DNA of 12,303 nt, from UHGV virus genome UHGV-0113946; one strand, 5' to 3'. Source of the stretch: a virus. Shown piece after piece: positions 7,155 through 12,303 of the stretch. Both the position numbers and the translations under genes were made by a program. The notes beneath the pieces are model-generated. The model searched no databases. It was given only the letters and a program-made list of their open reading frames with translations, and was not told where the DNA came from. The first letter of the stretch is position 1. Every line of letters begins with the position of its first letter.

Positions 7155-8875
7155 TACCTGTATGGAGCACAGCCTGCCCGGACTGGGCAGAGCGCCTGAA
7201 AAAGGGGCTGTCGATTATTCCGGATCCGATTTATCCGGACGAGGCCGCACATGCCCTGGCGATTTTTAAACAACTGCGGATTGTGGATGCACCGGGCAGC
7301 CCGACGTTCGGGGAGTCCTGTGCACCGTGGGTGTTTGACCTGGTGGCGGCCCTGTTTGGCTCCTACGATGCGCAGACCGGTGTACGCCATATCAAGGAAG
7401 TTTTTATCCTTATCCCCAAGAAAAACAGCAAGTCCACGCTGGCTGCCGGGATCATGATGACGGCGCTGTTACTGAACTGGCGGCAGGCGGCGGGCTACAC
7501 CATTCTGGCCCCGACCGTGGAGGTGGCGGCTAACGCCTTCAACCCTGCCAGGGATATGGTTCGACGGGACGATGATCTGGATGACCTCTGTCAGGTGCAG
7601 ACACATATCCGGACCATCACCCATCGGGTGACGGACACCACCCTGAAGGTGGTGGCAGCCGATCCGAATACGGTGTCCGGTATCAAGTCCGTGGGGACAC
7701 TGATTGATGAACTGTGGCTGTTTGGCAAGCAGTACAAAGCGGAAGACATGTTACGTGAAGCCATCGGCGGGCTTGCCTCCCGTCCGGAAGGATTTGTGGT
7801 GTATACGACCACCCAGTCGAATGAACCGCCCGCCGGGGTGTTCAGACAGAAACTGCAGTACGCCCGGGATGTGCGCGACGGCAAAATTCATGATCCGCAC
7901 TTTCTGCCGGTGATATTTGAACACCCTCCTGAAATGGTGGAAAGCGGAGCTCACCTGCTGATGGAAAACCTCGCCATGGTCAATCCGAATCTCGGCTATT
8001 CAGTGGATGAGGCCTTTCTGTACCGGGAGTATCGTAAAGCCCGGGAAGCCGGTGAAGATACATTCCGGGGGTTCATGTCAAAACACGCCAATGTGGAAAT
8101 TGGTCTTGCCCTGCGTTCTGACCGCTGGGCGGGTGCGGATTTCTGGGAGCAGCAGGGCAGGCGCGTCAGCCTGGACGATATTCTGCAGCGCGCTGATGTG
8201 GTGACGGTGGGGATTGACGGCGGGGGCCTGGATGATCTGCTGGGAATGTACGTGATTGGCCGTGACAGGGAAACCCGCGAATGGCTGGGCTGGGGCCATG
8301 CCTGGGCGCATGAAACCGCGGTGGTCCGACGGAAGAGCGAGGCGTCCCGGTTTCAGGATCTTGTTGCCTGTGGAGATATGACCATTGTCCGGCGTGTCGG
8401 GGATGACACGGCGGAAGTGGCGGAGTATGTGCGTCGTATTCATGAGGCTGAGTTACTGGATCATATCGGTATTGACCCGTCAGGTGTGGGGCAGATTCTG
8501 GATTCACTGGCGGAAGCCGGGATCCCCGACGGAATTGTTGTGGGGATAAGCCAGGGCTGGAAGCTGGGCGGGGCCATCAAAACCACCGAGCGCAAACTGG
8601 CTGAGGGAGTGCTGGTGCATGGTGGTCAGCCACTGATGGCCTGGTGCGTTGGCAATGCCCGGGTGGAGCCTAAAGGTAACGCCATCCTTATTACCAAACA
8701 GGCCAGCGGACGGGGGAAAATTGACCCGCTGATGGCGCTGTTCAATGCGGTATCCCTGATATCCCTGAATCCGGAGCCCAAAAAGAATATGCGGTTTTTT
8801 TCATATAACCCTGTTCACCCTGTAACCATCATGGACCGCTGCGGCGGTTTTTTTATTTTCAGGAGGCTGATGTGA
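7151..8875 (+). CDS. Terminase large subunit (ATPase plus nuclease)
   Basis: 574-aa ORF; deviant Walker A-like segment ILIPKKNSKST, Walker B-like LIDELW, acidic residues in the C-terminal half consistent with the RNase H-like nuclease; start overlaps the small-terminase stop. Confidence 0.9.
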   Translation: MIPVWSTACPDWAERLKKGLSIIPDPIYPDEAAHALAIFKQLRIVDAPGSPTFGESCAPWVFDLVAALFGSYDAQTGVRHIKEVFILIPKKNSKSTLAAGIMMTALLLNWRQAAGYTILAPTVEVAANAFNPARDMVRRDDDLDDLCQVQTHIRTITHRVTDTTLKVVAADPNTVSGIKSVGTLIDELWLFGKQYKAEDMLREAIGGLASRPEGFVVYTTTQSNEPPAGVFRQKLQYARDVRDGKIHDPHFLPVIFEHPPEMVESGAHLLMENLAMVNPNLGYSVDEAFLYREYRKAREAGEDTFRGFMSKHANVEIGLALRSDRWAGADFWEQQGRRVSLDDILQRADVVTVGIDGGGLDDLLGMYVIGRDRETREWLGWGHAWAHETAVVRRKSEASRFQDLVACGDMTIVRRVGDDTAEVAEYVRRIHEAELLDHIGIDPSGVGQILDSLAEAGIPDGIVVGISQGWKLGGAIKTTERKLAEGVLVHGGQPLMAWCVGNARVEPKGNAILITKQASGRGKIDPLMALFNAVSLISLNPEPKKNMRFFSYNPVHPVTIMDRCGGFFIFRRLM

Positions 8876-11020: not shown

Positions 11021-12303
11021 ATGTGGAACCTTTTACGGCGAACCCGAAAAAACCAGAAATCAGGACGTGATGTAAAAGAGGTGGGCTGGACCAGCCTGTT
11101 TCAGGCGGTGGCTGAGCCTTTTGCCGGTGCCTGGCAGCAGGGTGTGAAAGCCGATCCGGAAACCGTTTTGTCCTTTCACGCGGTGTTTTCTTGCATTTCG
11201 CTGATATCCCAGGATATCGCCAAAATGCGGCTGCGCCTGATGCAGACCGATACACAGGGGATCCGCCGTGAAAAACGACAGGGGGATATTGCCCGTCTCT
11301 GTCGTCGTCCCAATGCACAGCAGAATCGTATCCAGTTTTTTGAACTGTGGCTGAACGCCAAACTGCGTCACGGCAATACGGTGGTGTTGAAAATCCGTAA
11401 CTCCCGGGGGCAGATCAAAGAACTGCGTATTCTGGACTGGAGCCGGGTTGAACCTCTGGTGGCGGATGACGGCGAGGTGTTCTACCGCATCACGCCGGAC
11501 CGGAACTGCGGGATCACTGAGGCGGTGACGGTGCCTGCCCGGGAAGTGATCCACGACCGGTTTAACTGTTTTTTTCATCCGCTTATAGGGTTGCCGCCGG
11601 TGTATGCCGCCGGGCTGGCGGCCACGCAGGGGCATCATATTCAGGAAAATTCGACGTCTTTTTTCAGAAATGGCGGCAGGCCGTCCGGGGTGATTGAGAT
11701 CCCCGGCAGTATTACGGAAGAAAATGCGAAAAAACTGAAGAGCAACTGGGACAGCGGGTATACAGGCGAAAATGCGGGGAAAACGGCCATTCTGAGCAAC
11801 GGGGCAAAATACAACCCCACGACGTTTTCACCGGTGGATGCGCAGACGGTGGAACAACTGAAGATGACCGCTGAAATTGTCTGTTCGGTGTTCCGTGTCC
11901 CGGCCTACAAGATTGGCGTGGGACAACCGCCTTCCAGTGACAACGTGGAGGCGCTGGAGCAGCAGTATTATTCCCAGTGCCTGCAGACGCTGATTGAGTC
12001 CATTGAACTGTTACTGGATGAGGCGCTGGAAACGGGGGAAAACGAGAGTACGGAGTTTGACGTCACCACGCTGCTGAGAATGGACAGTGAGCGGCGCATG
12101 AAAACGCTGGGGGATGCGGTGAAAAATACGCTTCTCACGCCCAATGAAGCCCGTAAACGGGAGAACCTGCCGCCCCTGGCAGGAGGCGATGCACTGTATC
12201 TTCAGCAGCAGAACTACAGTCTGGAAGCGTTGTCCCGCCGTGATGCCCGTGAAGATCCGTTCGCGTCTTCCGGGAAAACGTCGTCAGGCACACGCCAGGA
12301 GGG
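11021..12303 (+). CDS. Portal protein (HK97-family-like), 3' end beyond the window
   Basis: Reading frame is open from ATG 11021 (GGAG 8 nt upstream) to the window edge, which is why it is absent from the ORF track. The C-terminal region contains LLTPNEARKRENLPPLAGGDALY, resembling the conserved NEAR...L.P..GGD portal motif as recalled. Alternative start GTG 11081. Confidence 0.8.
   Translation, partial: MWNLLRRTRKNQKSGRDVKEVGWTSLFQAVAEPFAGAWQQGVKADPETVLSFHAVFSCISLISQDIAKMRLRLMQTDTQGIRREKRQGDIARLCRRPNAQQNRIQFFELWLNAKLRHGNTVVLKIRNSRGQIKELRILDWSRVEPLVADDGEVFYRITPDRNCGITEAVTVPAREVIHDRFNCFFHPLIGLPPVYAAGLAATQGHHIQENSTSFFRNGGRPSGVIEIPGSITEENAKKLKSNWDSGYTGENAGKTAILSNGAKYNPTTFSPVDAQTVEQLKMTAEIVCSVFRVPAYKIGVGQPPSSDNVEALEQQYYSQCLQTLIESIELLLDEALETGENESTEFDVTTLLRMDSERRMKTLGDAVKNTLLTPNEARKRENLPPLAGGDALYLQQQNYSLEALSRRDAREDPFASSGKTSSGTRQE

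What the first reader, a model, noticed from the sequence alone, without database searches (positions are those of the whole stretch)
8872..12303. Protease-scaffold-capsid fusion gene and non-canonical head gene order (large terminase, capsid fusion, then portal)
A single 645-aa ORF joins an HK97-type prohead protease domain, a coiled-coil scaffold-like segment and an HK97-fold major capsid domain. The portal gene follows the capsid gene rather than preceding the protease, unlike the usual terminase-portal-protease-capsid order. The fusion implies every capsid subunit carries its own protease and scaffold, which are presumably removed by autoproteolysis during maturation.
Basis: partly seen in the sequence, partly recalled or inferred. 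Interest (0 to 1): 0.45.

Follow-up and report, generated by a model that had tools for sequence, protein, structure and literature searches.

The report
Fused protease-scaffold-capsid gene with internal start
This is the already-annotated head gene of a common group of Shiga-toxin prophages, in which the capsid-maturation protease, scaffold and capsid protein form one reading frame; comparison with 80 relatives suggests the gene also makes a protease-free capsid protein from a conserved internal start.

Summary
ORF 8872-10809 (645 aa) joins three parts:
- a prohead serine protease (aa 1-141);
- a helical scaffold ("delta") domain (aa 193-264), after a disordered linker;
- an HK97-fold capsid body (aa 293-645).

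It lies between the large terminase and, after a hairpin and a 73-aa ORF, the portal gene.

None of this is new. The gene is 97-99% identical to genes annotated "major head protein/prohead protease" in Stx-converting phages (genus Pankowvirus). Similar fusions are described in actinobacteriophages. The order TerL, protease-capsid, portal holds in about 70 of 80 loci from many phyla.

Met193 (ATG 9448) is the start codon of the capsid gene in unfused relatives. Three signals mark it as a start:
- It is preceded by a Shine-Dalgarno motif, conserved at the nucleotide level in all three codon phases.
- It lies in the least structured, most AT-rich stretch of the ORF.
- Fused and unfused states interchanged at least 9 times.

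Most likely there are two in-frame products, as with lambda C/Nu3 or herpesvirus UL26/UL26.5. This has not been tested experimentally.

The parts
5935..6300 (+). HNH endonuclease gene (context: packaging module of HK97-like cos phages)
   Evidence: Pfam HNH E 7.5e-7; same position in phage 1717
6516..7154 (+). small terminase subunit
   Evidence: Pfam Terminase_2 E 1.7e-8, PHROG 641 E 1.9e-68
7151..8875 (+). large terminase subunit; its stop TGA 8873-8875 overlaps the GTG start of the fusion gene
   Evidence: Pfam TerL_ATPase and TerL_nuclease; sequence
8861..8866 (+). Shine-Dalgarno AGGAGG of the full-length product, 5 nt before GTG 8872
   Evidence: sequence; predicted anti-SD duplex -10.3 kcal/mol
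8872..10809 (+). protease-scaffold-capsid fusion ORF, 645 aa, 69.1 kDa
8872..9294 (+). prohead serine protease domain (aa 1-141); His55, Ser110, Glu135 and Ser137 invariant
9295..9447 (+). disordered, poorly conserved linker (aa 142-192)
   Evidence: pLDDT below 50; lowest sequence conservation of the protein
9433..9437 (+). internal Shine-Dalgarno-like AAGGA, 10 nt before ATG 9448
   Evidence: sequence; the motif is kept in relatives in all three codon phases
9448..9450 (+). internal in-frame ATG (Met193), the proposed start of a 453-aa (48.3 kDa) scaffold-capsid product
   Evidence: invariant in 110 close homologues; Met in 103 and Val in 8 of 124 distant fused representatives; it is the start codon in unfused relatives
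9448..9663 (+). scaffold ('delta') domain: two long helices (aa 195-223 and 229-261)
   Evidence: AlphaFold model; TIGR01554 alignment begins at model position 3; profile match to the N-terminus (residues 4-67) of the EcCI2 major head protein
9664..9747 (+). flexible segment (aa 265-292); zone where the maturation cleavage is predicted (inference)
   Evidence: pLDDT below 50 at aa 265-283; position analogous to the HK97 delta/N-arm boundary (established knowledge)
9748..10806 (+). HK97-fold capsid body (aa 293-645)
   Evidence: Pfam PF05065; Foldseek probability 1.0 to Bxb1, D3 and HK97
10824..10845 (+). GC-rich hairpin (9-bp stem, GUGC loop) just after the capsid stop codon; no U-tract
   Evidence: a strong hairpin at this position in most of 80 loci (best hairpin z < -2 against intragenic windows in 74% of loci, median z -2.75; my reading of the listed folds is about 77 of 80)
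10854..11075 (+). 73-aa ORF of unknown function between the capsid and portal genes
   Evidence: PHROG 829, E 3.7e-39, function unknown; homologues at the same place in Enterobacterales loci
11081..12303 (+). portal gene, 5' part (407 codons to the window end)
   Evidence: Pfam Phage_portal E 8.5e-82; TIGR01537 E 1.6e-106

Best explanation
This is the head-assembly gene of a Pankowvirus-type lambdoid (Stx-phage-like) prophage. One reading frame encodes an HK97 gp4-type serine protease, a disordered linker, an HK97-type delta (scaffold) domain and an HK97-fold capsid body.

I propose that the gene yields two in-frame products:
- the full-length 69-kDa protease-scaffold-capsid protein, from GTG 8872;
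- a 48-kDa scaffold-capsid protein, from the internal ATG 9448 (Met193).

Both would co-assemble through their identical scaffold-capsid parts. The protease would then enter the procapsid by being covalently attached to a subset of capsid subunits, rather than by a separate targeting tail.

After assembly the protease removes itself, the linker and the delta domain. This leaves a mature capsid protein of about 37-40 kDa. The ratio of the two products would be set by the two ribosome-binding sites.

Shown here: the domains, the conservation of the catalytic residues, the conserved gene order, and the conserved internal ribosome-binding signature.

Inferred: that the internal site is actually used, the ratio of products, co-assembly, and the cleavage positions.
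For: **Identity of the domains.** His55 and Ser110 are invariant in 124 fused representatives at 38-55% identity.

**Met193 is the capsid gene's own start.**
- Unfused representatives of 456-478 aa begin at query position 193-196.
- In 11 unfused loci the protease gene ends 0-106 nt before that ATG.
- In four of them (L049, L067, L077, L081) the two genes are in the same frame, separated by a single TAA 12-18 nt upstream.

**Shine-Dalgarno signal at the junction (69 fused loci).**
- The junction start has a predicted anti-SD duplex of -5 kcal/mol or stronger in 87% of loci, against 13% of 905 other internal in-frame ATGs.
- It reaches -10 kcal/mol or stronger in 23%, against 0.2% (Mann-Whitney p 3e-29).
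- The GG core lies in all three codon phases (32, 28 and 7 loci) and encodes different residues.
- The spacers are mostly 5-10 nt.
- In 25 of 67 loci the junction motif is stronger than that of the gene's own start.
- Two loci have GTG at the junction behind a strong motif (L071 AAGGAGG, L053 GAGGAG).

**Signal in the window itself.** The 60 nt around ATG 9448 have the weakest predicted fold (-5.8 against a mean of -18.4, sd 4.1) and the lowest GC (0.30 against 0.60) of the whole ORF. Across loci the junction is among the least structured 5% of windows in 70% of cases.

**Repeated switching.** Fused and unfused states interchanged at least 9 times on a neighbour-joining tree whose inferred root state is fused. 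A switch from fused to unfused by a stop codon is viable only if the internal start already works.
Against: - No protein-level data could be found for this or any related phage.
- In the window and its enterobacterial relatives the internal motif is only AAGGA with a 10-nt spacer (-6.2 kcal/mol). That is about the 11th percentile of all codon positions in the ORF. The upstream start has a perfect AGGAGG.
- The low GC and weak structure at the junction could partly reflect a Lys/Asn/Glu/Ile-rich peptide.
- The loci are phylogenetically related, so the p-value overstates independence.
- A motif inherited from an unfused ancestor could persist for a time without being used.
- By my volume estimate, an all-fusion procapsid is not sterically excluded: about 13 MDa of internal protein in a T=7 shell, comparable to P22 scaffolding.
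Confidence: 0.62

Rival explanations
1. Only the 645-aa protein is made. Every capsid subunit brings its own protease and scaffold into the procapsid, and all are removed by autoproteolysis. The internal Shine-Dalgarno motif and ATG are unused relics.
For: - The ORF is intact and its length is conserved in thousands of sequences.
- The upstream start has the stronger motif in the window (AGGAGG, -10.3 against -6.2 kcal/mol).
- The start is translationally coupled to TerL.
- My volume estimate does not exclude about 415 copies of an extra 21-kDa domain inside a shell.
Against: - A relic would not stay in the top 0.3-0.8% of Shine-Dalgarno strength in 16 loci from several diverged branches of the tree, nor shift codon phase while keeping the nucleotide motif.
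- A relic would not be expected to coincide with the structural and GC minimum of the ORF.
- At least 9 switches between fused and unfused states imply that the capsid start works in the fused state.
Confidence: 0.25
2. This is a polyprotein model. The full-length protein cuts itself in the disordered linker before or during assembly. That releases a free protease, which then behaves like HK97 gp4. The fusion would serve only to co-express the two proteins, with or without internal initiation.
For: - The linker (aa 142-192) is disordered and poorly conserved.
- Unfused relatives end their protease gene at the same place, so a free protease with this C-terminus is functional in close relatives.
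Against: - No conserved cleavage motif was identified in the linker.
- It is established knowledge that HK97-type proteases act after encapsidation.
- A 1:1 yield of protease and capsid protein would still have to be accommodated.
Confidence: 0.1
3. The fusion is an artefact: a sequencing or assembly frameshift, or a decaying prophage gene.
For: A few odd gene calls exist in databases. Examples are a 1079-aa TerL-fusion chimera and a 784-aa fusion-portal chimera. Phage 1717 has IS629 inserted in TerL.
Against: - 93 phage records carry the same ORF at 90-98% DNA identity.
- The 90%-identity cluster has 9916 members.
- 69 of 80 loci from distant bacteria are fused.
- The catalytic residues are invariant.
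Confidence: 0.01

Closest known systems
Stx-converting phages 1717, 2851, YYZ-2008 and JLK-2012 (genus Pankowvirus) and the Stx1a/Stx2c phage series
   Same: The same gene at 97-99% protein identity. The same order HNH, TerS, TerL, fusion, small ORF, portal. Annotated as 'major head protein/prohead protease'.
   Different: Nothing essential. In phage 1717 TerL is interrupted by IS629 and the fusion CDS is annotated 33 nt longer at its 5' end.
Pseudomonas phage PAJU2 gp03 (genus Detrevirus)
   Same: A full-length homologue at 48% identity, carrying the record note 'prohead protease fused capsid protein'. The order is TerS, TerL, fusion, small ORFs, portal, unknown ORF, adaptor.
   Different: Two small ORFs lie between capsid and portal instead of one. 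The host is different.
HK97 gp4 (protease) and gp5 (delta domain plus capsid protein)
   Same: The same three functional parts. The delta domain is fused to the capsid protein. The protease belongs to the same Pfam family. The capsid fold is the same.
   Different: - In HK97 the protease is a separate gene, targeted by its own C-terminal tail.
- The HK97 gene order is TerL, portal, protease, capsid.
- Here the Asn at the HK97 crosslink position is Gly.
Nested in-frame assembly genes: lambda C/Nu3 and herpesvirus UL26/UL26.5 (established knowledge)
   Same: A protease at the N-terminus of a long product, plus a shorter product made from an internal in-frame start. The two share the C-terminal assembly domain, so that a minority of subunits carries the protease.
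   Different: In those systems the shared part is a scaffold only. Here it would be scaffold plus the capsid protein itself. Use of the internal start is not demonstrated here.
Actinobacteriophage 'major capsid and protease fusion' genes (clusters AM, AU, AN, EE, CW; Rhodococcus phage RRH1)
   Same: The same architecture, described as a protease-scaffold-capsid fusion (PMC5513430, PMC7302621).
   Different: No relationship was tested here, so the fusion may be independent. Those phages are reported with the canonical order, portal upstream.
NCBIfam NF045541 'prohead protease/major capsid protein fusion protein'
   Same: The same named architecture, with a partial match to aa 48-287.
   Different: The score is 53 bits against a cut-off of 525. 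This protein is not a member of that family.

Membership tests
Peptidase S78 / HK97 gp4-type prohead serine protease | Match to the family profile above the curated threshold | tested here: met
   Pfam PF04586 scores 34 bits against a cut-off of 21. The stricter TIGR01543 equivalog scores 45.8 against 59 and is not reached. PHROG 80 'head maturation protease' has E 3e-41.
Peptidase S78 / HK97 gp4-type prohead serine protease | Conserved catalytic His and Ser | tested here: met
   His55 (motif WQHD) and Ser110 (motif GLSVGF) are invariant in 124 fused representatives and in alignments A1 and A2. Their catalytic role is inferred by homology.
Peptidase S78 / HK97 gp4-type prohead serine protease | Assemblin-like protease fold | tested here: met
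Peptidase S78 / HK97 gp4-type prohead serine protease | Proteolytic processing of the capsid precursor | not testable with these tools
   Needs protein analysis of procapsids and virions.
HK97-fold major capsid protein with N-terminal delta (scaffold) domain | Profile match and HK97 fold | tested here: met
   PF05065 scores 54 bits against 24. TIGR01554 scores 78 against 27.5. Foldseek probability is 1.0 to Bxb1, D3 and HK97.
HK97-fold major capsid protein with N-terminal delta (scaffold) domain | Helical N-terminal domain ahead of the capsid body | tested here: met
   Helices at aa 195-223 and 229-261, followed by a disordered stretch at 265-283. The TIGR01554 match starts at model position 3, at residue 204.
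HK97-type chainmail (Lys-Asn isopeptide crosslink with catalytic Glu) | Lys, Asn and Glu at the positions of HK97 K169, N356 and E363 | tested here: not met
   Lys406 and Glu618 are present, but position 611 is Gly (codon GGC, 10702-10704). The Asn is present in 107 of 110 close homologues and 124 of 151 distant ones. The triad is K-N-E in 68 of 80 loci and is lost as a set in others. Equivalence to the HK97 residues rests on motif spacing recalled from the HK97 sequence and on the Bxb1 alignment.
NCBIfam NF045541 prohead protease/major capsid fusion protein | Score above the curated cut-off | tested here: not met
   53.1 bits against 525.
Nested in-frame two-product assembly gene (lambda C/Nu3, herpesvirus UL26/UL26.5 type) | Internal in-frame start codon with its own ribosome-binding site | tested here: met
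   ATG 9448 with AAGGA 10 nt upstream. The feature is conserved across 69 fused loci at the nucleotide level and lies in the least structured region of the ORF.
Nested in-frame two-product assembly gene (lambda C/Nu3, herpesvirus UL26/UL26.5 type) | Two polypeptides actually produced and co-assembled | not testable with these tools
   No proteomic or ribosome-profiling data were available. The literature search found none.
Pankowvirus-type Stx-phage head module | Near-identical sequence and the same gene order | tested here: met
   97.9% DNA identity over the whole ORF to Stx2_5044, and 97.7% to phage 1717. The neighbours are the same.

The most novel reading that the evidence does not exclude
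The fusion gene is a nested two-product gene. A minority of capsid subunits carries the maturation protease covalently, and the majority is made protease-free from a conserved internal ribosome-binding site. The protease dose would then be set by the ratio of two translation starts. Encapsidation would need no targeting signal. I found no description of such a delivery route for HK97-type proteases. The arrangement has flipped between fused and unfused states at least nine times.
Probability: 0.6. Interest if true: 0.5.

Novelty: already known. Interest (0 to 1): 0.35.

Why it matters
The fused gene and its position are already in public annotation, so the finding adds no new object.

What could matter is the expression logic. 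If the internal start is used, this widespread head module delivers a fixed dose of protease by tethering it to a few shell subunits. The module is present in many Shiga-toxin prophages of pathogenic E. coli and in prophages across the Proteobacteria and beyond. The mechanism would be the phage counterpart of herpesvirus UL26/UL26.5.

It would also explain how lineages switch freely between fused and separate protease genes. Finally, it would correct gene annotation, which at present lists one product.

Tried and rejected
- **Sequencing or frameshift artefact.** Rejected on conservation.
- **Membership in NF045541.** Rejected: 53 bits against a cut-off of 525.
- **PDB sequence searches.** Searches with the protein and with the profile found capsid proteins only, and no protease. 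The protease fold was therefore tested with a separate domain model.
- **Literature searches for experimental data.** I looked for processing or internal initiation in protease-capsid fusions. They returned only genomic descriptions. The PAJU2 and RRH1 papers are not held. One preprint concerns protease-scaffold fusions, not capsid fusions.
- **The K/E-G residues before Met193 as a conserved peptide (for example a cleavage site).** I judged this less likely, because the GG core occupies all three codon phases and encodes different residues.
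Full report
**1. What is in the window**

The window is the late region of a lambdoid prophage of the Shiga-toxin-phage type. The genes, in order on the + strand, are:

| Coordinates | Gene |
|---|---|
| 7-1329 | 3' part of a SASA/DUF6645 esterase |
| 1511-1930 | DUF826 |
| 1953-2222 | P21-type holin |
| 2227-3117 | DUF1327 |
| 3154-3687 | lysozyme |
| 4169-4669 | Rz |
| 5220-5561 | TonB_C-domain ORF |
| 5935-6300 | HNH endonuclease |
| 6516-7154 | TerS |
| 7151-8875 | TerL |
| 8872-10809 | 645-aa fusion ORF |
| 10854-11075 | 73-aa ORF |
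| 11081 to window end | portal |

The best complete E. coli genomes match 95-98% of the window at about 95% identity.

**2.

The ORF starts at GTG 8872. AGGAGG lies 5 nt upstream, and the GTG overlaps the TerL stop codon as GTGA.

Profile searches give:
- Peptidase_S78 at aa 48-152;
- Phage_capsid at aa 386-635;
- major_cap_HK97 from residue 204;
- PHROG 617 over the full length.

The full-length AlphaFold model (pLDDT 77.6) shows:
- a beta-rich domain at aa 1-141;
- a disordered linker at aa 142-192;
- two long helices at aa 195-223 and 229-261;
- a second disordered stretch at aa 265-283;
- a capsid body at aa 293-642.

**3. It is already known**

- 93 phage records hold the ORF at 90-98% DNA identity. 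They include Stx2 phage 1717, phage 2851, YYZ-2008, JLK-2012 and many Stx1a and Stx2c phages.
- Their annotations read 'major head protein/prohead protease' or 'capsid and scaffold'.
- Phage 1717 is classified in Pankowvirus.
- Pseudomonas phage PAJU2 gp03 is 48% identical.
- Fused protease-capsid genes are described for several actinobacteriophage clusters and for Rhodococcus phage RRH1 (PMC5513430; PMC7302621, which uses the phrase 'protease-scaffold-capsid fusion').
- NCBI has a family named for this architecture (NF045541). This protein does not reach its cut-off.

**4. The fusion and the gene order define a large clade**

- The 90%-identity cluster has 9916 members, and 644-aa homologues occur in Salmonella, Enterobacter, Klebsiella, Serratia and Pantoea.
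- A search of 1.84 billion cluster representatives found 1196 with E below 1e-30. Of the best 150, 123 are 600-700 aa long.
- Eighty loci were fetched from one-genome-per-species contigs. They cover Enterobacterales, Pseudomonas, Rhizobiales, Burkholderiales, Rhodobacterales and several metagenome-assembled genomes of other phyla.
- About 70 of them show TerL directly upstream and the portal 200-700 nt downstream.
- The order is the same in the unfused members, so it is a property of the clade and not of the fusion.

**5. The junction looks like a working translation start**

*Position of Met193.*
- Met193 is invariant in 110 close homologues although its surroundings are the least conserved part of the protein.
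- Among 124 distant fused representatives it is Met in 103 and Val in 8.
- Unfused capsid proteins of 456-478 aa begin at this position.
- In 11 unfused loci the protease gene stops 0-106 nt upstream. In four of them the stop is a single in-frame TAA inside or next to the Shine-Dalgarno motif.

*Shine-Dalgarno signal.*
- In 69 fused loci the junction start has a predicted anti-SD duplex of -5 kcal/mol or stronger in 87%, against 13% of 905 other internal ATGs.
- It reaches -10 kcal/mol or stronger in 23%, against 0.2%.
- Sixteen loci carry AAGGAGG- or GAGGAGG-type motifs that rank in the top 0.3-0.8% of their ORF.
- The GG core sits in all three codon phases and encodes K-E-G, K-G, Q-G-A, N-G-D and other residues. 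Spacers are mostly 5-10 nt. This indicates constraint on the nucleotides rather than on a peptide.
- Junction motifs are comparable to those of the genes' own starts (median -5.8 against -7.3 kcal/mol) and stronger in 25 of 67 loci.

*Local structure and composition.*
- In the window the motif is modest: AAGGA with a 10-nt spacer, -6.2 kcal/mol.
- However, the 60 nt around ATG 9448 are the least structured (-5.8 against -18.4 ± 4.1 kcal/mol) and the most AT-rich (GC 0.30 against 0.60) of the whole ORF.
- The same holds broadly across loci.

*Evolutionary switching.*
- On a neighbour-joining tree of the capsid parts the 11 unfused tips are scattered among 66 fused ones.
- Parsimony needs at least 9 changes, and the inferred root state is fused.
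- A switch from fused to unfused by a nonsense or frameshift mutation can survive only if the capsid start is already functional.

**6. Mechanism proposed**

The gene would make two in-frame products:
- a 69.1-kDa protease-linker-delta-capsid protein;
- a 48.3-kDa delta-capsid protein.

The two would co-assemble through their shared part. The protease would thus be tethered to some subunits and, after assembly, would remove itself, the linker and the delta domain. The mature protein is predicted to be 37-40 kDa, with its N-terminus between residues 265 and 293.

This follows the logic of lambda C/Nu3 and herpesvirus UL26/UL26.5 (established knowledge), with the capsid protein itself as the shared module. 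Use of the internal site, the ratio of products and the cleavage sites are all inferred.

**7. Expression context**

A GC-rich hairpin follows the capsid stop codon in the great majority of the 80 loci. Its best fold has z below -2 against intragenic windows in 74% of loci (median z -2.75). The stem sequences differ between lineages, and many hairpins are followed by a U-tract. This fits a drop in expression between a gene needed in hundreds of copies and the portal gene, which is needed in twelve. That reading is an inference.

**8. Verdict**

The object is already known. The added value is a testable two-product hypothesis backed by comparative evidence only.

Noticed in passing
window 10702-10704 (codon 611, GGC); also Lys406 at 10087-10089 and Glu618 at 10723-10725: Residues 406, 611 and 618 align by motif spacing with the HK97 crosslink triad K169, N356 and E363. 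The triad is K-N-E in 68 of 80 loci and is replaced as a set (I, E or D, V) in 8. Only the E. coli Stx-phage lineage (the window, phage 1717 and the 9916-member cluster) has K-G-E. This lineage may have lost capsid chainmail crosslinking recently.
   Followed up: partly
window 10817-10856: AAGGAGG (10817-10823) sits immediately 5' of the hairpin 10824-10845. It is followed 8 nt later by the ATG of the 73-aa ORF (10854). The same layout (GGAGG, hairpin, 6-9 nt, ATG GCA) recurs in most of the Enterobacterales loci examined (L001-L010; not L011). It resembles a split ribosome-binding site, brought into register by a hairpin.
   Followed up: partly
window 8833-8859: A terminator-like hairpin plus T-run (GGACCGCTGCGGCGGTTT then TTTTATTTT) lies inside the last codons of TerL, directly before the Shine-Dalgarno motif of the fusion gene. 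T-runs before that motif also occur in several relatives. The window-wide count of such sites is at chance level.
   Followed up: no
L001:15511-16734 (phage 1717 gp60); L082:6054-7058 (PAJU2 ORF007); just beyond the window end: A conserved ORF of 334-407 aa and unknown function follows the portal gene in this module (PHROG 1289). In some prophages it is fused to the portal (PHROG 2271, profile length 859), so it is labelled 'portal protein' by transfer. It has no Pfam family above threshold.
   Followed up: partly
window 5220-5561: A 113-aa ORF with a TonB C-terminal domain (Pfam E 8e-15) lies between the lysis genes and the HNH/terminase genes.
   Followed up: no
window 10854-11075: The 73-aa ORF between the capsid and portal genes (PHROG 829, function unknown) is detectably conserved only in the Enterobacterales loci. 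Other lineages have 200-700 nt, or different small ORFs, at this position.
   Followed up: no
proteins P0002, P0003, P0123, P0131: Some database proteins join this fusion to neighbouring genes. One is 1079 aa and includes a TerL domain. One is 784 aa and includes a portal domain. Two representatives of about 1090 aa have a 440-aa N-terminal extension. They may be gene-call or assembly artefacts, or further fusions.
   Followed up: no
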